Origin: an uncultured Erysipelotrichaceae bacterium
GTDB taxonomy: Bacteria; Bacillota_I; Bacilli_A; RF39; UBA660
Direction of reading: 5' to 3'
Assembly: GCA_902783895.1 (NCBI GenBank)
Contig: CACZST010000034.1
Coordinates: forward strand, 23,748 to 87,747
Length of the DNA stretch: 64,000 nt
Positions 16,474 through 62,607 of the stretch are shown here, in pieces. A model generated the notes under the pieces. That model was not told where the DNA came from. It saw only the letters and a list, made by a program, of their open reading frames with translations, and did no database searches. Positions within the stretch are counted from its first letter, which is position 1. The number at the start of each line of letters is the position of its first letter. The position numbers and the translations under genes were made by a program.

Positions 16474-17595
16474 TTATTTTTTATTTTTTGTAGTTTTTCT
16501 CATTATGACAGCTGATCCAATTACACAAGCTATTCCAAGTCCTGCAATTATTATTGAACCAAATGCGGATGTGGATGGTACTTCTACTACCTGTCCATTG
16601 TCCACTTTTACTTCATCTTTCTTATTTTCTTCATTTTTTGGTTCTTCTTTGACTTCTTCCACATATTTTGAAACTGTATATGGGTTTGTTTCTGTGCCTT
16701 CTCCATTTAATGTAGTTTCAGAAGAAAGGTAGAACGCAGGACAAACACTTCGCTCATAGCGTGGGTAACTGTAGCCTAAGAAACCACCACTATAGACGCG
16801 GTACACATTGTATGAGTCTGATGATGCGTTAAGAGAAAGTGTCCATGAATTATTGTCTGAATATAAATAATTATGTGTTTCGCTATTATTATAGCATGAT
16901 GTATTATAGGCATATGCATTTACATTTGTACATTCACTATTTGTTGATGCTTTTACATAATCTGTCGCATTCATAAGTGCTATTTTACCATTCCATTTAT
17001 ATGATGATTCTTCTTTTATACTTTCCGATAAATTAGTTTGATTATATGTGATTGGTCCAATATTCCATGTTTTTTCTACTATTAAACTTTTTACAATATC
17101 ATTCAAACCATTGTAAAAATCATTGTTTAAATATGTATTTAAAGTTGCTTCTTTATCTGGCAAATTTTTAAGTGTTCCATTTGCTTCCCATGGCATTTGA
17201 GTTACTTTATTCCCATTTGCATCAAGTGTCGTTGTATTGTTTCCCCATGATTTACAACCATCTTCACTTGTACAATAATCTTCACTATTAGTAGAATATC
17301 TAGCATTTTTCGCATCCCATGCTATTTTTCCAAGAGTCTCCTGTTTTATTACTTTTATTGTTCCATCTTTTTCTACTGATATTATTCTATATAAATCATC
17401 ACCTAATTTAATATAGTTATTAGGGTTACCTCCCCTTTAAATATATCTTCCATCAATAGTGGAATCTGCATAAAGTCCATCTCCAGTTGTTACTGCATTT
17501 TTCTTTAGTATATCTGCTGCCCTCTCCATTGCACTTACTGGATAAAAAGATATACTTAAAATAAATATTGTTAATGTTAAAAATAATTTCTTCAT
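16474..17595 (-). pseudogene. surface-protein family paralog (same family as 61421..62548) inactivated by an in-frame TAA at 17437..17439 (Tyr codon in the intact paralogs)
   Basis: ATG at 17595 encodes MKKLFLTLTIFILSISFYPVSAMERAADILKKNAVTTGDGLYADSTIDGRYI-stop-RGGNPNNYIKLGDDLYRII. The stop is in the same frame as ORF 16474..17196. Paralog 61421..62548 reads YIYRGGNPNNY at this position. Confidence 0.75.
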
Positions 17596-24189: not shown

Positions 24190-24226
24190 TTGGAATAAAA
24201 AAAGTTTATTTTTAAAATAAACTTAA
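24190..24226 (-). terminator. rho-independent terminator overlapping the polC stop codon
   Basis: Palindrome aagtttatttt-taa-aataaactt; the minus-strand transcript is followed by uuuuuuu. Confidence 0.5.
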
Positions 24227-27200
24227 TTGGCTAGACTCTTCCATACCATCTAGGATTCCCATGGATCTTAATTTTTCAATTAATGTTGTGGAAAGTTTAG
24301 CACGTTTTTGAAGGTCTTCGATACTTATGTATTCACCTTTTTTTCTTTCTTCAACGATGTTTTTAGCAACAACATCACCTAGCCCATCTATTGATCTAAA
24401 TGGTGGGATTAAGTTACCTTCTTCGTCAATAACAAAGTTTGTAGAATCACTTTTATATAAATTAATTGGTTTAAATTTGATGCCTCTTGCGAGTGCTTCT
24501 AAGGCAACTTTTAAACATTCTAGTATTGATGATTCTTTATTTGTTGCTTCATATCCTTTTTCATTTATTTCTATTATTCTGTTTTTTACAAATTCATATC
24601 CTTTTATCATACTTTCAATATCAAAGTCATCATATTCGACAGAGAACTGTGCGGCATAATATACAGATGGCTTATGAACTTTATAATAAGCTAAACGCAT
24701 AGCATTAATAACATAAGCAACAGCATGAGCTTTGGGGAACATATACTGAATTTTATAACAAGATTCAATATACCAATCTTCTATTCCAGCTTCTTTCATG
24801 TCTTTTACATATTCATTCCATTGATCTGGGATTTTTTTAGCTTTTCCTTTACGAACAAATTCCATTATTTTAAATGCTTTAAATGGAGCCATACCTTTAT
24901 ACATAAGATAAACCATAATATCATCACGACATCCGATAACATCACTGAAAGGTACTGTTCCACTATCAATTAAATCTTTAGCGTTACCATTCCATACATC
25001 TGTACCATGAGATAAACCAGATATTTTAACAAGTTCGGCAAAGGTTTTAGGTTTTGTATCTCTAACCATTTGTAAGGTAAATGGTGTTCCAAATTCTGGG
25101 ATACCTAATGTTCCTGTATCATTCATTATTTGGTCTTTGGTTACACCTAATGGTTCTGGTGATAAGAATATTTTCATTGTTTCTTTATCATCCATGGGTA
25201 TTTTAGTGACATCATCACCAGTTATATTTTGAATTAATCTTAATTTTGTTGGGCCTGAATGGCCTAAGATATCAAGTTTTAAAACGTCTTGGTCAATGGC
25301 ATGGTAGTCAAAGTGTGTGGTTCGCCAAGGTGATGTAGCATCGTCAGCAGGATATTGGAAAGGAGTAAAATCAAATACATCCATATACTGAGGAATAACA
25401 ACTATTCCACCTGGGTGCTGGCCGGTTGTTCTTTTAATTCCAGTACATCCTTGAGCTAATCTTTCAATTTCAGCATTTCGCATTGAAATTCCTTTATCTT
25501 CACAGTATCCTTTAACATATCCAAAAGCCGTTTTTTCGGCTACTGTACCAATAGTTCCGGCACGATAAACATTATCTTTACCGAATAATACTTTGGTATA
25601 TTCATGGGCTGCTGCTTGATTTAAATCAGAGAAATTTAAATCGATATCTGGTACTTTATCAGCGTGGAAACCTAAGAATGTAGCAAATGGCATGTCTTGT
25701 CCTTCTTTTATCATTTTTGTTTGACATTTTGGACAGTTATAATCTGGAAGATCATATCCACTTCCGTAATCACTTCCAAGTGGTCTACCATTTAATTCAA
25801 ATATAGAATGTTTACAATTTGGACAAACATAATGTGGAGGCAGGGCATTTACTTCAGTTATTCCCATCATTGTGGCAACAAGTGACGAACCAACAGATCC
25901 TCTACTTCCAACCAAATAACCATCATCATTTGATTTTTTAACTAATTTTTGGGATATTAAATAAATTACATCGAAGTTAGCACCTATGATACCAGTTAGT
26001 TTTTCTTTAATGCCTTTTTCATCTATATCAGGGTTATCTTCTTTTAATAAATTTATAATTCCTTTTTTATAACTTCGCATAACATCATGGAGTTTTTTAT
26101 ATATTATTTTATTATATTCCTCATCAGACATATCACCTTGAGGATTTTGTTTTTTTATTATATTAAATGGTTCATCTCCATAAAGTTCAGTGGCAAGTCT
26201 TTCTTCAATATTGTATGGTAATGGATTACCATAAATTTCTTCAGCTTTATCATATACCATATCAGTCGTTGTTTCGGAACAATTTTCAATATTTGGGGCG
26301 AAAGGAATTCCACCTGTGTCAATTATTACTTCAATTATGTCAACCATATCAGCAATTTTATTTGGATTAGTAATTACAATTTCTTTAGCTTCATCCTCGT
26401 CTAAGAAATTAAAATCTTCAAGCATTTCGGTTGTTGTTCGGAAATATTGATTTGGTATTTCTTTAATATTATTTCTAGATAGTGGGTGTCTTCCACCTCC
26501 AGGAACTTTTTGTCTTACAATGATTTCTCTATAAATTTTATCTTCAGGATTTATTTGGTGAACATCTCCGGTCGCCACTATTAGTTTTCCAGACTCTTTA
26601 GTTACTTTGATTATTTTTTTAATATGGTTAATTAGTTCAGCTTTATTACCAAAGTCACCCATTTGAATTAAGTGGTCATATACTTCTGGTGACTGAACTT
26701 CAACATAATCATAGAAGCCGATTAGATTTGCTAATTCTTCTTCTGATTTACTTCTGGCAAGTTTGAATATTTCACTTTCATAGCAGCCACTACCAATTAG
26801 TAATCCTTCTCTATGGCTTTCAATTTCACTTCTTAATATCCTTGGTGTTTTATATAAATATGTTGTGTTTGCTTTAGAGATTAATTTAAACATATTTTTA
26901 AGTCCAGTTTTATTTTTAGCTAAAATATTTACGTGATACGCTGCACCATATTTATAAATTTCATCTTTGGAAACTAGTTTTTCTAAGTCGGCAATTGTTT
27001 TAAAATTACGGTCAGTAAGTTTTTTTATCATTTTGTGAAATACTAAGGCAGTTCCTTCGGCATCATAATCACCACGGTGGTGAGCATTTTCATCCCAAGG
27101 GACATCATATCTTTTAACTAAAGCAGATAAACTATGTCTAGCATATCCGGTATCTAAGGCTCTTGAAAGTTCTAATGTATCAATAACTGGATTATCGAAT

Positions 27201-28717
27201 GAACCTAAATTGTATTTTTGATAAGCCATACTTATGAATGAAGTATCAAATTTGGCATTATGAGCGACTAATGGTAAGTCACCTATCCATTCTTTGAATC
27301 TTTTAACAGCATTTTCTTCATTATCTTTATCTTTTAACATATCATCTGTTATATTGGTAAGTTCAGTTATTTTATATGGAAGTGGTCTTTCTGGATTAAT
27401 TAATTCATCATAATGTTCTAGGATTTCTCCTTCTTTTATTTTAACGGCACCAATTTCAATTATAGAATCAGCACCACCAGCGTTAAATCCTGTAGTTTCT
27501 AAATCGAAAACAACATATGTTGATTTTAATAAATCTTCATTATTTTTTCTTACAACTATTCCTACAGTATCATCAATTAAAGTTAATTCGGTTCCATATA
27601 TGGCTTTGAATTTATCTTTATCTTCTTTACCTTTGTTATAACTTGTTACTGTATTAAATACATGTGGGAATGCTTGACATCCGTTATGATCAGTTATGGC
27701 AATGGCTTTATGGCCCCATTTAATTGCTTGGTTTACTAGGGCAATTTCGTCAGCTACACCATCCATTTGACTCATTTTTGTATGAGTGTGCAATTCTACT
27801 CTTTTTTCTTTAGCATTATCTTCTCTTACTTCATCTTCTTTTTCTAAGATATTAATAGCTCTTGCGTTTAAAACTATTTCATTTGAGTATTTATCATTTT
27901 TAGCATAACCTTTTATTAAATACCATTTCCCATTTTTTAGACTCTTTTTATATTTATTAAATTCTTCCTCTTCACGGCAGAATATTTTACAGTACATACT
28001 ATCTGATTTATCAGTTATTTTTAAGGTAATTATTTTGAAATTACTTTTACTTGACTCAAAAAAATCTACACCAAATATTTGTGCTTCAACAGTAACATTA
28101 TCCATTTCAAATGTGATTAAATTTATTTTAGTTGGAGTATCTTTTATTTCGCCGCCCATAATAAAAGGATTTTCTTTTATTACAGGTTTAGGAATTTCTT
28201 TTAATTTTTCTTTTTCTATTTCTTTTTCTATTTCTAAAGATTTTTCTTTGTTTATATTTGTTTTAATTTTTATTTTAAATCCAGCATAGTTTAACTGTTT
28301 TTCAAGTTCTTCTTTGATACTTGAAAACTTCATTTCTTCGGCAATATTTCCTACTTCAACTGATAAAATATTATCATCTAAATTTAATTTACTTTCCATA
28401 AAAATGGATAAAAGTGGAGCATTTTTACTATAGTCTTCTATAAAGTATCTATAGTAGTCAGTAAGCTTTTCTAAGTCAAATGATTCAACCTTAATATCAA
28501 CCTTTACACTTTCAGCGGTATTAAAACATTTAACCATTAGATTGCAGAAAGTAAAGTAAAGATTTTTGGGCAAAGTTTGTTTTAGGTTAAGACAAAAAAG
28601 ATATTTAGTTTTTCCTCTATTACAAATAATTTTTTCAAGTTTTCCACCATCAAAATATTTAAAATCGTCTTTATCTAAGTTAATTTGATTAAGTAATAAA
28701 TTAAGTTTATCGTTCAT
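24212..28717 (-). CDS. polC: DNA polymerase III PolC-type (Gram-positive replicative polymerase)
   Basis: 1501 aa; PHP, OB, 3'-5' exonuclease (DEDDh, e.g. VVFDLETTG) and polymerase core domains. Confidence 0.95.
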   Translation of the reverse strand: MNDKLNLLLNQINLDKDDFKYFDGGKLEKIICNRGKTKYLFCLNLKQTLPKNLYFTFCNLMVKCFNTAESVKVDIKVESFDLEKLTDYYRYFIEDYSKNAPLLSIFMESKLNLDDNILSVEVGNIAEEMKFSSIKEELEKQLNYAGFKIKIKTNINKEKSLEIEKEIEKEKLKEIPKPVIKENPFIMGGEIKDTPTKINLITFEMDNVTVEAQIFGVDFFESSKSNFKIITLKITDKSDSMYCKIFCREEEEFNKYKKSLKNGKWYLIKGYAKNDKYSNEIVLNARAINILEKEDEVREDNAKEKRVELHTHTKMSQMDGVADEIALVNQAIKWGHKAIAITDHNGCQAFPHVFNTVTSYNKGKEDKDKFKAIYGTELTLIDDTVGIVVRKNNEDLLKSTYVVFDLETTGFNAGGADSIIEIGAVKIKEGEILEHYDELINPERPLPYKITELTNITDDMLKDKDNEENAVKRFKEWIGDLPLVAHNAKFDTSFISMAYQKYNLGSFDNPVIDTLELSRALDTGYARHSLSALVKRYDVPWDENAHHRGDYDAEGTALVFHKMIKKLTDRNFKTIADLEKLVSKDEIYKYGAAYHVNILAKNKTGLKNMFKLISKANTTYLYKTPRILRSEIESHREGLLIGSGCYESEIFKLARSKSEEELANLIGFYDYVEVQSPEVYDHLIQMGDFGNKAELINHIKKIIKVTKESGKLIVATGDVHQINPEDKIYREIIVRQKVPGGGRHPLSRNNIKEIPNQYFRTTTEMLEDFNFLDEDEAKEIVITNPNKIADMVDIIEVIIDTGGIPFAPNIENCSETTTDMVYDKAEEIYGNPLPYNIEERLATELYGDEPFNIIKKQNPQGDMSDEEYNKIIYKKLHDVMRSYKKGIINLLKEDNPDIDEKGIKEKLTGIIGANFDVIYLISQKLVKKSNDDGYLVGSRGSVGSSLVATMMGITEVNALPPHYVCPNCKHSIFELNGRPLGSDYGSGYDLPDYNCPKCQTKMIKEGQDMPFATFLGFHADKVPDIDLNFSDLNQAAAHEYTKVLFGKDNVYRAGTIGTVAEKTAFGYVKGYCEDKGISMRNAEIERLAQGCTGIKRTTGQHPGGIVVIPQYMDVFDFTPFQYPADDATSPWRTTHFDYHAIDQDVLKLDILGHSGPTKLRLIQNITGDDVTKIPMDDKETMKIFLSPEPLGVTKDQIMNDTGTLGIPEFGTPFTLQMVRDTKPKTFAELVKISGLSHGTDVWNGNAKDLIDSGTVPFSDVIGCRDDIMVYLMYKGMAPFKAFKIMEFVRKGKAKKIPDQWNEYVKDMKEAGIEDWYIESCYKIQYMFPKAHAVAYVINAMRLAYYKVHKPSVYYAAQFSVEYDDFDIESMIKGYEFVKNRIIEINEKGYEATNKESSILECLKVALEALARGIKFKPINLYKSDSTNFVIDEEGNLIPPFRSIDGLGDVVAKNIVEERKKGEYISIEDLQKRAKLSTTLIEKLRSMGILDGMEESSQLSLF

Positions 28718-28810: not shown

Positions 28811-29773
28811 TTATTCAGATATACTATATGGATTTGCTTCTGTACCTTCTCCGCATAATTTTATATCTGAGCTTAAATAGAATGATGGGTAAAAGCTTAT
28901 TAGACTACTTGCATTATTTTGTCTTATACTTGTTGTTGAAAACATGTACCATATTGCATCTGCAGCTGAATGACTAAATGGTGATAATAACCAGCTTTGC
29001 TTTGTGGACGTTAGATAGTTATGAGATTGACTATTGTTATAACATGCGGATGTACTCCTATATGCACCAGCACTAACACATGCGGAGTTATTACTTGCTT
29101 TTACATAATCTACGACACTAATTAAAGCTATTTTACCTTTCCACCTATATGCAGATGCTTCTTGCATATTTTGCGCAATACTTGACATATCATATCCAAC
29201 AGGACCGACATCCCAATATTTTTCTTCGATATATTTTTTTACGTTACTATCTAGACTATTATACCACTCATTATTTAAATATGTATTAAGTGTTGCTTCT
29301 TTATCTGGAATTTCTTTTAAAGCCTCTCCTATTTTTATTGGCATTTTTGTTACACTATTGCCGTTTGCGTCAAATGTTGTTGTTTTGCTCCCCCAGACTT
29401 TACAACCTTTTGCACTTGTTCCACAATATTCTGATGTCCTTGAGCTTGCCTTATCCCATGCTTGTCCGCTAACATAATCTTTCTTCATTACTTTTATAGT
29501 TCCATCATTTTCAAGTGATATTATTCTATAAAGGTCATTACCTAATTTAATATAATTTTCAGGGGTACCCCCTTTGAAAACATATCTACTTGTGTCGTTA
29601 GGGTCGATATATAAGCCCGAACCTGTTTTGGTTAATTTCTGCATTAATTTTTCACTTGGAGTTTCCGATTTACATACTATTTTACTTTTACCAGTTATTT
29701 TTACACTTGTACTGAAAGCAGCATAACCAATAGTCATTAAAGTTACAACTGCAAGTAAACTTATAAACATCAT
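28811..29773 (-). CDS. surface-protein family paralog lacking the C-terminal anchor; currently out of frame with an upstream leader ORF (ATG 29808) because of a poly-A(13) tract
   Basis: 320 aa ORF MMFISLLAVVTLMTIG...GDGLYID..NDLYRIISLENDGTIKV...LPDKEATLNTYLNNEWYNSL...KWKGKIALISVVDYVKAS...GEGTEANPYSISE. It ends before the VPxTS anchor seen in the paralogs. Confidence 0.7.
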   Translation of the reverse strand: MMFISLLAVVTLMTIGYAAFSTSVKITGKSKIVCKSETPSEKLMQKLTKTGSGLYIDPNDTSRYVFKGGTPENYIKLGNDLYRIISLENDGTIKVMKKDYVSGQAWDKASSRTSEYCGTSAKGCKVWGSKTTTFDANGNSVTKMPIKIGEALKEIPDKEATLNTYLNNEWYNSLDSNVKKYIEEKYWDVGPVGYDMSSIAQNMQEASAYRWKGKIALISVVDYVKASNNSACVSAGAYRSTSACYNNSQSHNYLTSTKQSWLLSPFSHSAADAIWYMFSTTSIRQNNASSLISFYPSFYLSSDIKLCGEGTEANPYSISE

Positions 29774-29782
29774 TGTTTTTTG

Positions 29783-29795
29783 TTTTTTTTTTTTT
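29783..29795 (-). repeat. homopolymeric A(13) tract (T13 on + strand) in the 5' coding leader of the surface-protein gene; candidate slipped-strand phase-variation switch
   Basis: ATG(29808) AGA AAG ATT C + A13 + C AAAAAA CAA TGA gives MRKIQKKKNKKQ-stop. With A14 or A11 it reads MRKIQKKK(K)QKT fused in frame to MMFISLLAVVTLMTIG, giving a complete signal peptide. Confidence 0.7.
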
Positions 29796-29833
29796 GAATC
29801 TTTCTCATATATTTCCTCGCTTATTATATTTAT

Positions 29834-29862
29834 ATTATATATAGGTATTTGGGATAAATCAA
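29834..29862 (-). promoter_or_regulatory. sigma-A promoter of the phase-variable surface-protein gene (TTGATT-17-TATAAT)
   Basis: -35 at 29857-29862 and -10 at 29834-29839 on the minus strand. Confidence 0.5.
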
Positions 29863-29896: not shown

Positions 29897-32077
29897 CTAT
29901 TTTCTTAATTTTAATGTTTTTGTTTTAACTGTTTTTTCCTCTTCAATATTATTTTCTTCAGTTTCTTCTTTGAATTTTTCTTTGGAAACAACTAAATAAA
30001 TTGTTCTGTCTGGGATTGATACAGCTTTAACTAAAGCATATACTCTTCCACCTAATTTATATTTAGGTTTTTCACCATTTTTATTTGGTTTTCTTATAAT
30101 ATCATCGTTAGCGACAATACCCCTTATATGGTTATCAAGTTTAATTTCCATTTTTGAAGGAGTGATTCTAGTAATTTTTCCTTCAAATGTTTCATTAATG
30201 TGTTCACTCATGAACTGAGCCATTTTTAATTCCATAGTTTCTCTTTCAGCTGTGTCAGCTTCTCTTTCCATGAATGATGAATGTTCACATATTTCTGGTA
30301 GTTCTTTTTCTAACTTATCTAACCCTTCATATGTTTGGTAATGATTAATTAGGTTATGAACTTCTAAATCTGGGAATCTTCTGATTGGTGATGTAAAGTG
30401 TGTATAATGAGTTAATGATAACCCATAATGTCCTTCATTTTGGTGAGAATAGATAGCTTTACTCATTCCTCTTAAAAGCTGGTTAGAAATTATTGTATAA
30501 TTTTCTGTATTTTTATAACTTTCTAAGAAATCTTTTATGTCTTTTGAGGTATAACCTTTATTTTTTATTTTATTTATTAATCTATCGGCTATGACACTAT
30601 CACAAAGTTCTTCTTCTTTTAGAGTTTTTAGTATTTCAACTATTTTATCAGGATCTGGAATGGCATGAATTCGGTATACGAATGGTCCTTCCATATATGA
30701 GTAATATTTTGTGACTGTTTCGTTTGCTGCTATCATAAAGTTTTCAATCAATTTTTCAGCAGGTCCTTGATATCTTTGTTTGAAATCTAATGGATTTCCA
30801 TTTTCATCTACTTCTACTTTTAATTCATCAGAATAAAAATCTATATTACCTCTTTGTTTACTATTTTCACTTAATATTTTAGATAATTCATACATTAACT
30901 TTAAATCAGATTCAAATTCTTCATAACCTTCAACTGTTTGATTTTTATCAATTATTAGGTTTACATCATCATAGTTCATTTTTTTCCTTGATCTTATGAC
31001 ACTGTCATATATCTTACTATCAATTATTTTACCATTTTTATTTATCTTCATTTCGACTGTTTTAGTTAATCTGTCAACTTTTTCATTTAATGAGCAAATT
31101 CCATTTGATAGTTGATGTGGAAGCATTGGTACGACAGAGTTAGCAAGATATGCGGATGTTCCTCTTTCCATAGCTTCACTATATAAAGCCATATTTTCTT
31201 TTACATAGTGAGTTACATCAGCAATATGAACACTTAAGATGTAATTACCATCATTATCCTTTTCGATGCTTATGGCATCATCCATATCTTTAGTGTCTAT
31301 ACCATCTATTGTGAAAATGGTTTTATCTCTTAAATCTTCTCTTCCTTTTATTTCTTCAGAAGTTACACAACTTGGAATTTTTTCTAATTCTTTTAGTGCT
31401 TTATCTGAAAATTCAGGCATAAATCCATGTCTGGCAGCAATGGCTTTAATATCAATATCTGGATCATCTTTGTGACCGAGAATTTTTTGCAACTTGCCGT
31501 CATAGATTAATTTACCATTAATAATGGCGTGAAGATCTTTTTCTAGTCTAACAAGTACTCTATGTCCTGCTACGATACCTGTTAATGTTGATTTTGGACA
31601 TAAGAATGTGATGTTATTTTTTAGACCGTATGGTATAAATTCTTTACCATCATATTCAAATATAGCAAATCCAGGATCTCTTTTTATTATTTTTTCTACT
31701 CTTCCTTTGAAACGTAATTTTCCACTTTTTTCTATATCTGTTAGGACGACTACGTCACCGTCTAAAGCTCCCCCTAAATTTTTTTCTGAAACAATATATT
31801 TTTCTTCATTTTGACCTTTTTTTAATATGATATACCCAGTACCATACTTGTCAATAGAAATTTTTCCTTGTATTTTGTGCAAATTTCTTGCACTAAATAT
31901 TTGATAATGATCACTTTCATCATAATATATTTGTCCATTTTCTTCTAAATCTTTTAATGCATTAGAAAAAGAAGCACAATCATCCTCACCTTTTACATGC
32001 AAAATTTTGCGCAATTGGCTTTCAGTGTGCTTCTTTTCTTTTAATAATTTAATTATTTGTCCTTTGATATCATTCAT
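29897..32077 (-). CDS. rnr: ribonuclease R
   Basis: 726 aa; cold-shock/OB domains, RNB catalytic domain, C-terminal S1 and basic tail. Confidence 0.9.
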   Translation of the reverse strand: MNDIKGQIIKLLKEKKHTESQLRKILHVKGEDDCASFSNALKDLEENGQIYYDESDHYQIFSARNLHKIQGKISIDKYGTGYIILKKGQNEEKYIVSEKNLGGALDGDVVVLTDIEKSGKLRFKGRVEKIIKRDPGFAIFEYDGKEFIPYGLKNNITFLCPKSTLTGIVAGHRVLVRLEKDLHAIINGKLIYDGKLQKILGHKDDPDIDIKAIAARHGFMPEFSDKALKELEKIPSCVTSEEIKGREDLRDKTIFTIDGIDTKDMDDAISIEKDNDGNYILSVHIADVTHYVKENMALYSEAMERGTSAYLANSVVPMLPHQLSNGICSLNEKVDRLTKTVEMKINKNGKIIDSKIYDSVIRSRKKMNYDDVNLIIDKNQTVEGYEEFESDLKLMYELSKILSENSKQRGNIDFYSDELKVEVDENGNPLDFKQRYQGPAEKLIENFMIAANETVTKYYSYMEGPFVYRIHAIPDPDKIVEILKTLKEEELCDSVIADRLINKIKNKGYTSKDIKDFLESYKNTENYTIISNQLLRGMSKAIYSHQNEGHYGLSLTHYTHFTSPIRRFPDLEVHNLINHYQTYEGLDKLEKELPEICEHSSFMEREADTAERETMELKMAQFMSEHINETFEGKITRITPSKMEIKLDNHIRGIVANDDIIRKPNKNGEKPKYKLGGRVYALVKAVSIPDRTIYLVVSKEKFKEETEENNIEEEKTVKTKTLKLRK

Positions 32078-46962: not shown

Positions 46963-48180
46963 CTAATTATTTATTTTTATCATTTTTCTTGATACAATTA
47001 TTGCTAAACTAATAAATATAATTCCAATTGATGCGATTATTATTGATGCTTTTGCGGAGGTAGCTGGAACTTCAACTATTTGCGGGTTGTCTGTTTTACT
47101 ATTCTTATCATCTTTTATAGTATCTTTTATAATATCTGTTGCATTGGCTTTTTTATCATCTACTTCATCATCTTTTTCATCATCTTTTGGTGCATATAAT
47201 GTATATGGACTTTCTTTAGTACCTTCTCCTTCTAAAGTAGTTTCACTTGATATATAGAAGGCTGGGCGAACGCCTAATGTAGATGTTGCAACATTAAAGT
47301 CAATTACTCCTGTTAAAGATGAATTTGCTGAATCAAGATGAAGGTTATCCTGGGAATAATAAGGATTTGATATTGGATTTAAAAACCATGGAGAGATTTT
47401 TGAATACAAATAATTATGACTTGTTATGTTTTTATGACAAGACTCTTTGGCTTGATAATTTCTAAAGGCTGCAAATCCGTTACATTCAGGGTTTGTGCTT
47501 GCTTTAATATAATCAGTTACATTCATTAAAGCTATTTTGCCTTTCCATTTATATGTAGCTTCCTCATTTAAAGTTTCACTTACTGGAGCATCACTTTTTA
47601 CGTAGTAATAATCTACACTACCTATATTCCAAATATAATCTACTATTATTTTTTTAATATCATCAGATAGGCTATTATACCAAGTTGTATTTAAATATGT
47701 ATTTAAACTTGCCTCTTTATCTGGCAAATTATATAGTTTATCACCTATTCCTTTTGGCATTTGAGTTACATTATTACTGTTTGAATCTAGTGTAGTTGTA
47801 TTACTTCCCCAGACATTACATCCATAATCTGAATTACAATAGTCTTCGGAATTTGTGGATTTTCTATTTTCTTTTGTATCAAAATTGGCAGATGATGAAT
47901 TATATACTGTACCATTAGCGTCATTTTTTACTATTTTCATTTTACCATCTACTTCAATTGATATTATTCTATATAAGCTATTATTTAGTTTTAAGTAATT
48001 ATTTGGACTACCACCTTTATAGATATATCTCCCTTCTTCATCATTATCTATATAAAGCCCATCTCCTGATGTCACTGTATTTAAAACTAGGTTTCTGGAA
48101 GTAATGCTTTGAGCTTTTACTTGTGTATTTAAAGTTAGAGGTATTCCAATTAAACCTAAATAAGTCAAAATATTTTTCAT
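46963..48180 (-). CDS. surface-protein family paralog with VEVPATSA + TM + basic tail C-terminus
   Basis: Start MKNILTYLGLIGIPLTLNTQVKA after AGGAGGA; conserved blocks GDGLYID..GRYIYKGGSPNNYLKL, LPDKEASLNTYLN, KWKGKIALMNVTDYIKAS, RPAFYISSETTLEGEGT. Confidence 0.7.
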   Translation of the reverse strand: MKNILTYLGLIGIPLTLNTQVKAQSITSRNLVLNTVTSGDGLYIDNDEEGRYIYKGGSPNNYLKLNNSLYRIISIEVDGKMKIVKNDANGTVYNSSSANFDTKENRKSTNSEDYCNSDYGCNVWGSNTTTLDSNSNNVTQMPKGIGDKLYNLPDKEASLNTYLNTTWYNSLSDDIKKIIVDYIWNIGSVDYYYVKSDAPVSETLNEEATYKWKGKIALMNVTDYIKASTNPECNGFAAFRNYQAKESCHKNITSHNYLYSKISPWFLNPISNPYYSQDNLHLDSANSSLTGVIDFNVATSTLGVRPAFYISSETTLEGEGTKESPYTLYAPKDDEKDDEVDDKKANATDIIKDTIKDDKNSKTDNPQIVEVPATSAKASIIIASIGIIFISLAIIVSRKMIKINN

Positions 48181-48268
48181 AGGTTTTCCTCCTATTATTA
48201 CTATACCCATAATACTTGAAAAGTTAATTAGAAAATAGCAATTAGATATATAAAAAAAGATATCATTT

Positions 48269-49756
48269 TTATTTACTGATATCCTTCTTTTTAAATACTT
48301 TTAAATATAAGTATCCACTTACTGCAAGTAATATGACTGCACCTACTATTACAAATATTGATGTGAATAATGAAGTTGGTGGTACATCTACTATTTGGGT
48401 AATACTTGATGTTATATTATTTGAATTAGCAGATCCTCCCATATTTGATAAAGTATATGGACTGTTTTCGCTTCCTTCTCCACCAGTTATACTAATAGAT
48501 GAATTTAAATGAACAACTGGTCTTATTGAGAATGAATTATAATATACTGCACCAAAATCTTGGTAAACATATTGTGGGTTTAATCCTTGATTTGAGGCTG
48601 AATACACAAGTTCATTACTGTTATAAACTGGTGTGATTAATAAATAATTATAATCAGTAAATTTGTATGTCTCAGGTGGAATTAAATAATTTGATTTATC
48701 ACAATTATTTTTTAAGGTTGGGTATCTAAATTTTGCATATGTACCATATTTTTCACTTCCATCTACTAATTTGTCATCACTCCAACTATTAGCACATCCT
48801 CCCCAATTATCTTTTTGTGTGCATTCTCCGTTAGTATTAACTAATGTCATCGTTCCACATGTTTTTTCATCATTAGTTGCTTCAAGTACATCTGTTAATG
48901 TTGGCATAGCAACATTACCATTCCATGTATATTTACTTTCTTCTTCATTATTTTCTTTTATAATATTATTAATTTCTGTAAAATAACTATCATAAGTAGG
49001 TTTTAACTCCTCCATTTTTTGCTTTTCTTTTTCCATTTGAGATTTATAATATGTTGAATTAGTACCACTTGGATCATTTTCATAATTTTTTTTATTTGTC
49101 TCATAAAAATCTTTAGCACCCAAGTATCCTACCACTTTTTCTTCATATACTTTATCTTTTAAAGATACACCACCAATATTATAATTGTATTTTACGATTT
49201 GATTTTTGGCATTTTCTGATAGCTTTTTATAATAATCATTATTTAAATAATCATTAATATCTGAGTTATTTTCAACTTTACCTTTTAATTCAAACGTTTT
49301 GTCATATTGATCATAATCTAAGCTATTGGGCCCGCTATAGCCACTAAGACCATTTTCTGTTACACCTGCATAGACACCGTTACTGAAGCTATCTGTTTTA
49401 GCCCAGGCATTACATCCAAATTGGGCATAATCACAGTATCTATTCCCTGTTGGTTTTTGCTGATCAATGTCAAATGTTGCATTATTATCTAGGGTATTTG
49501 ATCTAATTATTTTTAATGTTCCATCTTTTTCGATGGCCATTACTCTCCAAAGTTCATTATTGAATTTGATATAGTTATTTGGATTTGCTCCTTTATAGAC
49601 ATATCTGCCTTCAGTTACTTCATCTTTGTAAAGTCCTTCACCTTCAGTTACTACTTTACTTTTTAAAGTTTCTGAAGCAGTACTTGCGGCGTTTACCTGT
49701 GATATCATAGTAAAAGGTATACTAAATAAGCTTAAAAATAATAAAAATTTTTTCAT
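48269..49756 (-). CDS. surface-protein family paralog (divergent middle) with DVPPTSL + TM + basic tail C-terminus
   Basis: 495 aa; signal peptide MKKFLLFLSLFSIPFTMISQVNA; GEGLYKD..GRYVYKGANPNNYIKFNNELWRV N-terminal block. Confidence 0.7.
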   Translation of the reverse strand: MKKFLLFLSLFSIPFTMISQVNAASTASETLKSKVVTEGEGLYKDEVTEGRYVYKGANPNNYIKFNNELWRVMAIEKDGTLKIIRSNTLDNNATFDIDQQKPTGNRYCDYAQFGCNAWAKTDSFSNGVYAGVTENGLSGYSGPNSLDYDQYDKTFELKGKVENNSDINDYLNNDYYKKLSENAKNQIVKYNYNIGGVSLKDKVYEEKVVGYLGAKDFYETNKKNYENDPSGTNSTYYKSQMEKEKQKMEELKPTYDSYFTEINNIIKENNEEESKYTWNGNVAMPTLTDVLEATNDEKTCGTMTLVNTNGECTQKDNWGGCANSWSDDKLVDGSEKYGTYAKFRYPTLKNNCDKSNYLIPPETYKFTDYNYLLITPVYNSNELVYSASNQGLNPQYVYQDFGAVYYNSFSIRPVVHLNSSISITGGEGSENSPYTLSNMGGSANSNNITSSITQIVDVPPTSLFTSIFVIVGAVILLAVSGYLYLKVFKKKDISK

Positions 49757-61420: not shown

Positions 61421-62548
61421 TTAAATCCTTTTATTTTTTGTCATTTTTTTCGTAATTATTACAGCTAAAGATATAAATATAATTCCAATAGATGCGATTA
61501 TTATAGACATCTGAGCGGATGTGGATGGTACTTCTACTAATTGCCTGTTATCTATATCGACTTCATTATTATTTTCTTCATCTTTTGTTTCTTCAACATA
61601 TTTTGAAACTGTATATGGATTAGTCTCTGTACCTTCTCCATTTAGTGTAGTTTCAGAGGATAGGTAGAATGCGGGACGGACATACATATTAATCCATGTG
61701 TGTTGATAACCTAAATATCCTCGACCAGTTGTAATACTTGAATTATATCTATTTGCATTCTCGGAGTAGGAAGAAATCGTCCATTCACTATTCTTAGGAT
61801 ATAAATAATTATGCGTTTCACTATTATTGTAACACGATGAATTTCCATTGGCATAGTAATAATCTTTTATACTTATGCAAGCACTATTATTAGAACCTTT
61901 AATATAATCTATAGCGCTAATCAAAGCTACTTTACCTTTCCATTTATATGCTGTTTCTTCTTTTACACTTTCTTTTAAATCTTCTTGATTATAATTTATT
62001 ACTCCTACACCCCAATATTTTTCCTTAATGTATTCTTTAATATTATCACTTAATCCGTTATAAAAATCATTATTTAAATATGTATTTAATGTTGACTCCT
62101 TTTCTGGAAGATTCTTTAAGTTCCCTCCTATCTCCCATGACATTTGGATTACTTTGTTTCCACTCTCATCTAACATAGTCTCATTACTTCCCCAGACTTT
62201 GCAGCCAAGTGAACCAGTTGAATAGCAAAAATCATCACCAGCCTTCGATGGTCTTGAATCACCCTTGTCCCAAGGCGTTTCCCCAATACTATCTTGTTTT
62301 ACTACTTTTATAGTTCCATCTTTTTCTACTGATATTATTCTGTAAAGGTCATCACCTAATTTAATATAGTTATTTGGATTCCCACCCCTATAAATATATC
62401 TTCCATCTATAGTGGAATCTACATATAAACCATCTCCTGACGTTACTACATTTTTCTTTAAGATATCTGCAGTTTTTTCCATAGCTTTTACTGGATAAAA
62501 AGATATACTTAAAAGAATTACTGAAAGTGTAAAAAATAATTTTTTCAT
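61421..62548 (-). CDS. surface-protein family paralog (intact reference copy) with VEVPSTSA + TM + basic tail
   Basis: 375 aa; signal peptide MKKLFFTLSVILLSISFYPVKA; all conserved family blocks present. Confidence 0.75.
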   Translation of the reverse strand: MKKLFFTLSVILLSISFYPVKAMEKTADILKKNVVTSGDGLYVDSTIDGRYIYRGGNPNNYIKLGDDLYRIISVEKDGTIKVVKQDSIGETPWDKGDSRPSKAGDDFCYSTGSLGCKVWGSNETMLDESGNKVIQMSWEIGGNLKNLPEKESTLNTYLNNDFYNGLSDNIKEYIKEKYWGVGVINYNQEDLKESVKEETAYKWKGKVALISAIDYIKGSNNSACISIKDYYYANGNSSCYNNSETHNYLYPKNSEWTISSYSENANRYNSSITTGRGYLGYQHTWINMYVRPAFYLSSETTLNGEGTETNPYTVSKYVEETKDEENNNEVDIDNRQLVEVPSTSAQMSIIIASIGIIFISLAVIITKKMTKNKRI

Positions 62549-62587: not shown

Positions 62588-62607
62588 AAAAAAAAAAAAA
62601 AAAAAAC
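62588..62607. repeat. A(20) on + strand, T(20) on the coding strand: a homopolymer in the promoter spacer of the surface-protein gene 61421..62548, replacing T8/T7 at the same position in the paralogous promoters
   Basis: Coding-strand context attacttg-T20-gataaaatgggtatagtaaagtaggagagg, versus attac-T8-gctaaaatgggtatagtaaaaataggaggag upstream of 49756 and T7 upstream of 17595. Confidence 0.7.

What the first reader, a model, noticed from the sequence alone, without database searches (positions are those of the whole stretch)
29770..29829. Poly-A(13) tract in the signal-peptide leader gives an ON/OFF phase-variation switch for a surface-protein gene
A good sigma-A promoter (TTGATT-17-TATAAT) is followed by an ATG at 29808 that reads MRKIQKKKNKKQ then stop (TGA at 29770-29772). 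A tract of 13 A runs through this leader (T13 at 29783-29795 on the + strand). The main ORF, which begins MMFISLLAVVTLMTIG, lies in the +2 frame and begins immediately after. One extra A or two fewer A would fuse the basic n-region MRKIQKKK(K)QKT to the hydrophobic core and create a canonical signal peptide. In the present frame only an n-region-less internal start is available. This is the classic slipped-strand contingency-locus layout.
Basis: seen in the sequence. Interest (0 to 1): 0.7.

Follow-up and report, generated by a model that had tools for sequence, protein, structure and literature searches.

The report
Frameshift-prone poly-A tract in surface-protein leader
A run of 13 A's in the first codons of a secreted lectin-like protein gene puts the gene out of frame in this strain, and other strains of the same uncultured gut bacterium carry in-frame and out-of-frame versions of the run, so this is a real but ordinary mutational on/off polymorphism of a kind already known from Listeria and Mycoplasma.

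Summary
On the minus strand, ATG 29808 has the only Shine-Dalgarno site. It reads MRKIQKKKNKKQ*, running through A13 (29795-29783). Its TGA overlaps the ATG of a 320-aa ORF (29773-28811).

Adding one A or removing two fuses the frames. The fused protein has the basic n-region, hydrophobic core and GYAAF N-terminus found in 54 of 60 relatives. The protein is a DUF6273, C-type-lectin-like, secreted or surface protein.

Public assemblies of the same species carry five tract alleles:
- A6GA7: in frame, the majority allele, at least 24 contigs.
- A6GA6: -1 frame, about 10 samples.
- A11: in frame.
- A13: the window, -1 frame.
- A27: the other off frame.

A13, A27 and A6GA6 all occur on an identical 2.5-kb flanking haplotype. 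The window allele is A6GA6 plus a G-to-A change, so the frameshift is inherited and the pure tract is a later derivative.

The on/off polymorphism is therefore real. High-frequency reversible switching is unproven, the common allele is G-interrupted and stable, and the exact length 13 depends on the assembly. The closest precedents are Listeria inlA (A2GA4/A7/A6) and Mycoplasma hominis vaa.

The window's only other long homopolymer (T19, 62588-62606) lies in the promoter of a paralogue.

Verdict: a new member of a known kind, of modest interest.

The parts
29857..29862 (-). -35-like hexamer TTGATT
   Evidence: The match is 10/12 with a 17-nt spacer. Such matches are not enriched in this AT-rich region. 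The hexamer is conserved in all strains that cover it.
29834..29839 (-). -10 hexamer TATAAT
29815..29818 (-). Shine-Dalgarno core GAGG, six nt before ATG 29808
   Evidence: The anti-SD duplex is -7.3 kcal/mol, comparable to neighbouring genes (-8 to -13).
29770..29808 (-). Leader mini-ORF MRKIQKKKNKKQ* in the A13 allele. It is the true 5' end of the gene, here cut off by the -1 frame.
   Evidence: The fused equivalents MRKIQKRKKQKT (P0121) and MRKIQKKKQKT (L066) exist in other strains.
29783..29795 (-). Uninterrupted A13 tract (T13 on the + strand), the mutable element
   Evidence: Alleles elsewhere are A6GA7, A6GA6, A7GA6, A11, A27, and A>=14 at a contig break.
29776..29781 (-). Second short run A6, invariant in all alleles seen
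29770..29773 (-). ATGA overlap of the leader stop (TGA) with the first ATG of the main ORF. This is a possible termination-reinitiation site.
   Evidence: Read directly from the sequence. A functional role is inference only.
28811..29773 (-). Main ORF (320 aa as called): the h-region and GYA|AF of the signal peptide plus the DUF6273 C-type-lectin-like domain
62588..62606 (-). Related second tract: T19 (coding-strand sense) in the promoter of paralogue 62548..61421. The layout is ATTACTTG-T19-GATAAAAT, so CTTG+T could supply a TTGTTT -35 and TGATAAAAT an extended -10.
   Evidence: The run is T19 in L059 and L060, T18 in L061 and T20 in L016 from another organism. Sister paralogues have T7 and T8 in a homologous promoter.
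61421..62548 (-). Paralogue of the same family (375 aa) with a standard signal peptide and a C-terminal VEVPSTSA + TM + basic tail

Best explanation
The tract lies in the Lys-rich n-region of the signal peptide of a gene for a secreted or surface C-type-lectin-like (DUF6273) protein. The organism is an uncultured, 27% GC gut Bacilli bacterium. Because lysines are encoded as AAA, the n-region is a homopolymeric tract that gains and loses bases by replication slippage. Each change that is not a multiple of three disconnects the only ribosome-binding site and start codon (ATG 29808) from the rest of the gene.

In this strain the tract is a pure A13, one base short of in frame. Ribosomes starting at 29808 stop after 12 codons, and the protein is not made with a functional export signal. 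The gene is genetically OFF, or at most weakly expressed.

The likely history is as follows:
1. The ancestral allele A6GA7 was in frame and stabilised by the G.
2. It lost one A to give A6GA6 (OFF), which spread through one clade.
3. In the window's lineage a G-to-A change fused the two short runs into A13. This kept the frameshift but produced a much more slippage-prone tract. Its length differs even between otherwise identical contigs (A13, A27, A>=14).
4. On a sister haplotype a pure A11 restores the frame.

Shown here: the anatomy, SD presence and absence, the family-typical fused N-terminus, the five natural alleles, their haplotype background, and the protein fold.

Inferred: slippage as the mutational mechanism, loss of export in the OFF alleles, reversibility, and any adaptive value.
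For: - Anatomy and frame arithmetic.
- Start site: an SD is present only at ATG 29808.
- N-terminus: 54 of 60 GYAAF-type relatives have 2-9 K/R before the h-region, and the fused form aligns with them column for column.
- In-frame natural alleles: P0121 (332 aa) is on at least 24 contigs in 50 index blocks with the DNA C-A6GA7-C. L062, L063 and L078 carry the same allele. L066 has A11, with the gene called from ATG1.
- Off-frame natural alleles: A6GA6 occurs in about 10 samples. The window has A13 and L002/L072 have A27. L073 breaks inside A>=14.
- Haplotypes: the window, L002, L074 and L077 share one 2,560-nt haplotype yet carry A13, A27 and A6GA6. Two other clades carry A6GA7.
- Tract length is the only difference between the window and the ENA contig over 6,963 + 4,080 nt.
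- Long A/T runs are otherwise avoided in this window, and the only other one sits in a paralogue's promoter.
- Precedents with the same allele logic: inlA A2GA4/A7/A6 (PMC2831843) and vaa A8 ON, A7/A9 OFF (PMC524362).
Against: - There is no read-level or single-colony evidence of heterogeneity within a population.
- The majority allele is G-interrupted and appears uniformly ON in at least 24 contigs. The OFF allele A6GA6 appears stably inherited in about 10 samples. At the consensus level, switching is therefore slow, not classic high-frequency phase variation.
- Leader tracts are absent from 52 homologous loci in other genomes, so the tract is not a conserved, evolved switch.
- Other family copies are inactivated by non-repeat lesions: a TAA nonsense codon in paralogue 17595..16474 and a non-homopolymer leader frameshift in L079. 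Both fit plain decay.
- A13 versus A27 in identical contigs may be an assembler artefact.
- A13 is long enough for RNA-polymerase slippage, so OFF may be leaky.
Confidence: 0.6

Rival explanations
1. Plain gene decay. The family is large and redundant (five copies in this window, at least 13 in a related MAG). Frameshifts at a mutational hot spot are simply tolerated. On this view the A6GA6, A13 and A27 alleles are young pseudogenes, with no reversible or adaptive switching.
For: - A6GA6 is inherited unchanged across about 10 samples and two haplotypes.
- Paralogue 17595..16474 has an in-frame TAA in place of a conserved Tyr.
- Another family member has a non-homopolymer leader frameshift in three assemblies.
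- Homologues lack leader tracts.
Against: - An in-frame A11 allele exists on a clade-B haplotype whose relatives are A6GA6. This looks like a frame-restoring second event.
- No second disabling lesion is seen in any off-frame allele over 960 nt, and the five differences from the ON clade are all third-position synonymous changes. This is weak evidence, because divergence is only about 0.5% and the polarity of the changes is unknown.
- Both long tracts in the window sit at 5' ends of this family.
Confidence: 0.25
2. Leaky expression by recoding. RNA polymerase slippage on the 13-A run could add an A, or ribosomes could slip -1 or slide on A AAA AAA. Either event restores the frame in a fraction of messages, so the A13 allele would be a dimmer rather than an off switch. 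This can coexist with the best explanation.
For: - The frame defect is exactly the one corrected by +1 A in the RNA or by a -1 ribosomal shift.
- Bacterial RNAP slips on runs of nine or more A/T, giving up to six extra nt (PMC1088944; PMC5009743).
- This genome avoids runs of 9-12 about 30-fold, as expected if such runs are slippery in this organism.
- A human A4GA5-to-A9 deletion rescued by transcriptional slippage is a formal analogue (PMC12946587, abstract).
Against: - There is no stimulatory RNA structure downstream (z = +0.26 and +0.56), and no conserved frameshift signal.
- The widespread A6GA6 allele has only 6-nt runs, too short for efficient RNAP slippage. E. coli RNAP needs at least seven T and more A (PMC6260861).
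- Nothing is known about this organism's RNAP.
Confidence: 0.3
3. Assembly or sequencing artefact. The true tract length in this strain is not 13, and could be in frame. The assembler picked one path through noisy homopolymer reads.
For: - A contig with 0 mismatches to the window over about 11 kb carries A27.
- A Logan contig with the same rnr haplotype ends inside A>=14.
- Several contigs break at or just before the leader.
Against: - The rest of the window shows no sign of homopolymer indel errors. polC (1501 aa), rnr and about 50 ORFs are intact despite 19 runs of 8.
- The A6GA6 frameshift, which is the same length as A13, is reproduced by different assemblers in about 10 samples.
- Loss of the G is seen in four assemblies.
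Confidence: 0.2
4. The internal ATG (29773 or 29770) is used through termination-reinitiation at the ATGA overlap. This would yield a protein without the basic n-region, which might be retained or inserted differently rather than absent.
For: - The leader stop and the ORF start overlap as ATGA in every -1 allele.
- Gene callers annotate the 320-aa and 319-aa products.
Against: - There is no SD before the internal ATGs.
- No family member with an intact leader lacks an n-region.
- From established knowledge of Sec signal peptides in Gram-positives, signal peptides without positive charge are poorly exported.
- The ATGATG is also present in ON alleles, where it simply encodes Met-Met.
Confidence: 0.1

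Closest known systems
Listeria monocytogenes inlA 5' poly(A) homopolymeric tract (Orsi, Bowen & Wiedmann 2010, PMC2831843)
   Same: - It is a Firmicute surface-protein gene with an A-run in the first codons, in the signal-peptide n-region.
- The species carries a G-interrupted in-frame allele (A2GA4), a pure in-frame allele (A7) and a -1 allele (A6) that truncates after a few codons.
- ON and OFF alleles are found on near-identical backgrounds, with multiple independent origins.
- The present locus shows the same logic: A6GA7 / A11 / A6GA6, A13, A27.
   Different: - The tract here is twice as long, and in the window allele much longer than A7.
- An extreme A27 allele exists.
- Reversion rates were measured for inlA (5.5e-7) but not here.
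- The protein is a DUF6273 lectin-like protein, not an LRR internalin.
- The organism is uncultured.
Mycoplasma hominis vaa adhesin poly-A phase variation (Zhang & Wise 1997, as summarised in PMC524362)
   Same: A poly-A tract at the 5' end of a surface adhesin gene acts as the switch. One length is ON (A8) and +/-1 is OFF, through slipped-strand mispairing.
   Different: - For vaa, switching at 1e-3 to 1e-4 was shown in culture and the tract is maintained as a switch.
- Here the commonest allele is interrupted and stable, and no switching rate is known.
Transcriptional-slippage rescue of frameshifts in poly(A) tracts (Baranov et al. 2005, PMC1088944; Buchnera/Blochmannia cases cited in PMC5009743)
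   Same: A run of nine or more A in a coding region has the downstream ORF in the frame reached by adding one A.
   Different: There is no evidence that the frameshift is conserved or selected, no transcript data, and the widespread off allele (A6GA6) lacks a long run.
Promoter-spacer homopolymer phase variation (for example the M. hyorhinis vlp poly-A, Neisseria porA/opc and Bordetella fim tracts; recalled from established knowledge, not tested here)
   Same: This applies to the second tract (T19, 62588-62606). It is a homopolymer between a TTG-containing -35-like element and an extended -10 of a surface-protein paralogue. The length is 18, 19 or 20 in different assemblies.
   Different: Promoter elements are inferred from sequence only. 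The length is nearly constant (T19 in three of four same-species assemblies). No expression data exist.
DUF6273 / C-type-lectin-like DGR target proteins and the N-terminal domain of Thomasclavelia ramosa IgA protease
   Different: No template repeat is visible in the window, no RT was looked for beyond that, and there is no peptidase domain. Variation here comes from paralogy and a leader frameshift, not DGR mutagenesis.

Membership tests
SSR-mediated phase-variable (contingency) locus | A simple-sequence repeat lies within the 5' coding region or the promoter | tested here: met
   A13 lies at codons 6-9 of the leader, 29795-29783.
SSR-mediated phase-variable (contingency) locus | Repeat-length changes toggle between a full-length and a truncated product | tested here: met
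   A14 and A11 give 332-aa and 331-aa fused proteins. A13, A12 and A15 give 12-aa or 39-aa peptides.
SSR-mediated phase-variable (contingency) locus | Length polymorphism with both ON and OFF states occurs among closely related strains | tested here: met
   Five alleles were found. A13, A27 and A6GA6 lie on one identical 2,560-nt haplotype, and A11 (ON) lies on a sister haplotype.
SSR-mediated phase-variable (contingency) locus | High-frequency reversible switching occurs within a clonal population | not testable with these tools
   No reads or cultures are available. The only indirect hints are contig breaks in the tract and A13 versus A27 in identical contigs.
SSR-mediated phase-variable (contingency) locus | The uninterrupted repeat is maintained across strains or orthologues, as expected under selection for mutability | tested here: not met
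   The majority allele is G-interrupted A6GA7. Fifty-two homologous loci in other genomes have no leader tract.
SSR-mediated phase-variable (contingency) locus | The product is surface-exposed or interacts with the host | tested here: inconclusive
   There is a signal peptide with GYA|AF. The fold is C-lectin-like, related to the IgA-protease N-terminal domain. Paralogues have a C-terminal anchor or a pilin N-terminus. No localisation data exist.
Programmed recoding site (transcriptional slippage or -1 PRF) | A slippery run of sufficient length lies in the correct phase | tested here: met
   The A13 run is present, and +1 A in the RNA or a -1 ribosomal shift gives the fused frame.
Programmed recoding site (transcriptional slippage or -1 PRF) | A downstream stimulatory structure is present, or the frameshifted arrangement is conserved | tested here: not met
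   Folding z-scores are +0.26 and +0.56. Most strains are in frame without recoding.
Pfam DUF6273 (PF19789) C-type-lectin-like domain family | A profile match at the gathering threshold, with a matching fold | tested here: met
DGR (diversity-generating retroelement) target | A template repeat matching the C-terminal variable region, with a nearby RT | tested here: not met
   blastn of the last 330 nt of all five paralogues against the window finds only paralogue-to-paralogue matches. The rest of the genome was not available.
SipW-type (TasA/camelysin-like) signal peptide, NCBIfam TIGR04088 | A profile match to the signal-peptide model | tested here: not met
   The NCBIfam scan of the fused protein returned no family at E <= 1. 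The resemblance of GYAAFS to GGTxAxFSD is recalled from memory only.

The most novel reading that the evidence does not exclude
The DUF6273 lectin-like surface proteins of this uncultured gut Bacilli lineage may form a homopolymer-controlled variable repertoire. One copy would be gated by reading frame (the A-tract in the signal-peptide n-region). Another would be gated by promoter spacing (T18-T20 between a TTG -35 and an extended -10, conserved in a different organism, L016). Pure-tract alleles such as A13 would act as dimmers through transcriptional slippage rather than as dead genes. That would be a Mycoplasma-style surface-variation system in a walled, spore-gene-bearing commensal Firmicute known only from metagenomes.
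Probability: 0.15. Interest if true: 0.55.

Novelty: new member of a known kind. Interest (0 to 1): 0.35.

Why it matters
If the tract switches in vivo, it would be an example of mutational on/off control of a host-facing lectin-like protein in an uncultured commensal gut Bacilli lineage. Phase variation has hardly been documented in such organisms.

It also shows that public metagenome assemblies alone can expose ON and OFF alleles on a single haplotype.

There is a practical point for annotation. The 320-aa and 319-aa products deposited for this gene are N-terminally truncated calls from frameshifted alleles. The real gene starts at ATG 29808.

Tried and rejected
- JGI metagenome scans found nothing, both for the exact leader 24-mer and for the T-tract promoter motif. 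The extra alleles came from ENA, Logan and NCBI contigs, using rnr variants as handles.
- The genome-contig scan with the family alignment did not recover the window's own species (best hit 48% identity). It showed no recurrent leader tracts in 52 loci.
- NCBIfam gave no hit, so a SipW-type signal could not be confirmed.
- A DGR explanation for the family's C-terminal variability was considered, because DUF6273 is a known DGR target. No template repeat is present in the window.
- A programmed -1 frameshift stimulator was sought by folding the downstream RNA. Nothing exceeded the shuffles.
- The ThomasA paper was read for a function of the DUF6273 N-terminal domain. None is stated.
- I tried to use synonymous/nonsynonymous counts to show purifying selection in the off-frame clade. 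All five changes are synonymous, but divergence is too low and the polarity unknown, so I do not rely on this.
- The sigma-A promoter is a consensus match only. Such matches are at the chance level in this AT-rich DNA.
Full report
**1. What is in the sequence**

On the minus strand the region reads TTGATT-17 nt-TATAAT, then 15 nt, then GAGG, then 6 nt, then ATG (29808).

The coding sequence continues AGA AAG ATT CAA AAA AAA AAA AAC AAA AAA CAA TGA. The leader peptide is therefore MRKIQKKKNKKQ*.
- A13 occupies 29795-29783.
- The stop is at 29772-29770.
- The stop overlaps ATG 29773 of a 320-aa ORF that runs to 28811.
- The gene lies between rnr (RNase R, 32077..29897) and polC (28717..24212).

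Editing the tract in silico shows that A14 or A11 fuses the two frames into MRKIQKKK(K)QKTMMFISLL.... A12 and A15 read into a 39-codon dead end.

**2. Is the tract more than chance?**

The window is 27% GC.
- Dinucleotide shuffles expect 2.4 A13 windows.
- Markov models expect 1.1-1.4 runs of 13 or more.

Composition alone therefore does not make the run remarkable.

The real sequence, however, strongly avoids long runs. It has 19 runs of 8, one of 9 and none of 10-12, against about 39, 17 and 12 expected. The only two runs longer than 9 nt are this one and a 19-mer at 62588-62606. Both lie at the 5' end of paralogues of one gene family.

The promoter is a 10/12 consensus match, but such matches occur at chance frequency here.

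**3. Which start is real?**
- The anti-SD duplex upstream of ATG 29808 is -7.3 kcal/mol, in the range of neighbouring genes.
- The 22 nt before ATG 29773/29770 contain no usable SD (+1.6 kcal/mol).
- Among 60 relatives with the same GYAAF-type N-terminus, 54 have 2-9 Lys/Arg ahead of the hydrophobic core, with the motif at residue 22-31.
- The exceptions are this gene's own off-frame products and one other truncated group.
- In a 17-sequence alignment the fused N-terminus matches the family column for column.

The gene therefore starts at 29808, and the window allele is frameshifted.

**4. What the protein is**
- Pfam gives DUF6273 exactly at threshold, and many homologues are precomputed as PF19789.
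- An AlphaFold model built on the alignment is moderate in quality (pLDDT 69, pTM 0.71).
- The literature describes DUF6273 as a C-lectin-like ligand-binding domain, often a DGR target (PMC10743442, bioRxiv 2024.10.15.618418).
- The same domain occurs behind three kinds of export or anchoring module. These are the GYAAF-type signal, a standard signal plus a C-terminal VPSTSA-TM-basic tail, and a type IV pilin N-methyl N-terminus.

A secreted or surface location is therefore a reasonable inference.

No DGR template repeat is visible in the window.

The organism is an uncultured gut Bacilli lineage. Its SerS is about 80-83% identical to "Bacilli bacterium" MAGs and "Firmicutes bacterium CAG:822". 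It carries nrdDG and a YunB sporulation gene nearby.

**5. Population evidence**

The 90% cluster of the ORF holds a 332-aa member, P0121 (MRKIQKRKKQKT...). It is found on at least 24 contigs in 50 index blocks. Its DNA is C-A6-G-A7-C, 14 nt and in frame.

I used strain variants of the adjacent rnr gene as handles to collect further contigs. The alleles are listed below.

| Allele | Frame | Where seen |
|---|---|---|
| A6GA7 | ON | L001/L078, L062, L063, plus the P0121 contigs |
| A6GA6 | -1, OFF | L003=L064, L005, L006, L065, L067, L074-L077; also L004/L069 at a contig break; about 10 samples, several assemblers |
| A11 | ON | L066; gene called from ATG1 |
| A13 | OFF | the window |
| A27 | the other OFF frame | L002=L072 |
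| A>=14 | contig ends inside the run | L073 |

A haplotype table of 2,560 flanking nt with 42 variable sites shows the following:
- Two clades carry A6GA7.
- A third clade, B, carries all the off-frame and pure-A alleles.
- The window, L002, L074 and L077 have identical haplotypes yet carry A13, A27, A6GA6 and A6GA6.

A13 has the same length as A6GA6 and differs only by G to A. The parsimonious history has three steps:
1. A6GA7 lost an A to give A6GA6. This is the frameshift, inherited through clade B.
2. A G-to-A change gave A13, a pure tract that is still off frame.
3. Further length change followed, to A27.

A11, on a sister haplotype, restores the frame.

The window and the ENA contig are identical over 6,963 + 4,080 nt except for the tract. 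Either the tract is truly unstable or its length is not reliably assembled. The data cannot separate the two.

**6. Mechanism and rivals**

The best-supported reading is a slippage-prone homopolymeric tract in the signal-peptide n-region. It produces heritable, potentially reversible ON/OFF alleles. The window carries an OFF allele whose tract has recently become pure and therefore much more mutable.

The rivals are as follows:
- **Simple decay in a redundant family.** Supporting points are the stable inheritance of A6GA6, a TAA nonsense codon in paralogue 17595..16474, and a non-homopolymer leader frameshift in another family member.
- **Leaky rescue by RNA-polymerase or ribosome slippage on A13.** The direction of the defect fits. 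Runs of nine or more are slippery in bacteria (PMC1088944, PMC5009743). There is no stimulatory structure.
- **Assembly artefact in the exact length.**
- **Reinitiation at the ATGA overlap.** No SD precedes the internal starts, and no relative lacks an n-region.

These readings are not mutually exclusive.

**7. Comparison with known systems**

The allele spectrum parallels L. monocytogenes inlA almost point for point. There, A2GA4 is stable and in frame, A7 is in frame, and A6 truncates after 8 aa. Those alleles coexist, with independent origins and ON/OFF pairs on identical backgrounds (PMC2831843).

M. hominis vaa is the classic rapid-switching version, with A8 ON and A7/A9 OFF at 1e-3 to 1e-4 (PMC524362).

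Against the defining features of a contingency locus:
- Repeat position, frame toggling and inter-strain ON/OFF polymorphism are met.
- Maintenance of the uninterrupted repeat is not met. The majority allele is interrupted, and the tract is absent from 52 homologous loci.
- Rapid within-clone switching cannot be tested here.

The locus therefore works like a homopolymeric-tract switch. It should be filed as a polymorphic, mutable tract of the inlA type, not as a proven phase-variable contingency gene.

**8. Second tract**

The window's other long homopolymer is T19 in coding sense, at 62588-62606. It sits between ATTACTTG and GATAAAAT, about 30 nt upstream of the SD of paralogue 62548..61421.
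- The run is T19 in two other assemblies from both strain clades, T18 in one, and T20 in the equivalent promoter of a different organism (L016). Sister paralogues with a homologous promoter have T7 and T8.
- If CTTG+TTT provides a TTGTTT -35 and TGATAAAAT an extended -10, then T18, T19 and T20 give 17-, 18- and 19-nt spacers.
- This is inference from sequence only. It is the basis of the more novel reading that the family is under homopolymer control at two levels.

**9. Verdict**

The locus is a new member of a known kind. Interest is modest (0.35), and would be higher only if read-level data show genuine rapid switching or slippage-dependent expression.

Noticed in passing
window 62588-62606 (with ORF 61421-62548, minus strand); L016 1441-1460; L059, L060, L061: The window's only other long homopolymer (T19 in coding sense) lies in the promoter of a DUF6273 paralogue, as ATTACTTG-T19-GATAAAAT. 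It is T19 in two other assemblies, T18 in one, and T20 at the equivalent promoter in a different organism. Sister paralogues have T7 and T8. This may be a promoter-spacer tract.
   Followed up: partly
window 16474-17595 (minus strand), stop at 17439-17437: A third family paralogue carries an in-frame TAA where all relatives have Tyr (GRYI*RGGNPNNY). This splits it into 52-aa and 240-aa ORFs, so it is an apparent nonsense pseudogene.
   Followed up: partly
window 28811-29808, 61421-62548, 16474-17595, 46963-48210, 48269-49756; loci L007-L058: Five DUF6273 family copies lie in 64 kb. The family is hugely expanded (at least 13 loci) in a related Hadza-gut 'uncultured Bacilli' MAG (CAKOWU01). The same domain occurs behind three different N-terminal or anchoring modules: the GYAAF signal, a standard signal plus a C-terminal VPSTSA-TM tail, and a type IV pilin N-methyl N-terminus.
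   Followed up: partly
L079 1144-1215 (also L080, L081): A family member in another organism has its signal-peptide region broken by a frameshift that is not in a long homopolymer (MRMNRTQKNYIRT*). The ORF is then called from an internal Met just before GYAAF. This is seen in three independent assemblies.
   Followed up: partly
whole window: A/T runs of 9-12 nt are about 30-fold depleted relative to Markov expectation (1 observed against about 30 expected). This suggests strong selection against slippery runs in this very AT-rich genome.
   Followed up: yes
L068, L069, L070, L071, L073, L004, L061 (contig ends): Many ENA and Logan contigs terminate at or within a few dozen bases of the A-tract leader, and one terminates at the T-tract promoter. 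This is consistent with graph branching caused by length heterogeneity or homopolymer read noise.
   Followed up: no
L005, L006, positions 914-926 of the ORF (window about 28845-28857): Five clustered third-codon-position differences at exact 3-nt spacing occur near the 3' end in two assemblies. This looks like a short gene-conversion patch from a paralogue rather than independent mutations.
   Followed up: no
window 29897-29925 (minus strand), just after the rnr stop: A short GATT-TAT-AATC hairpin followed by T8 lies after the rnr stop codon. It is weak, and the terminator scan did not call it. Read-through from rnr into the leader therefore cannot be excluded.
   Followed up: no
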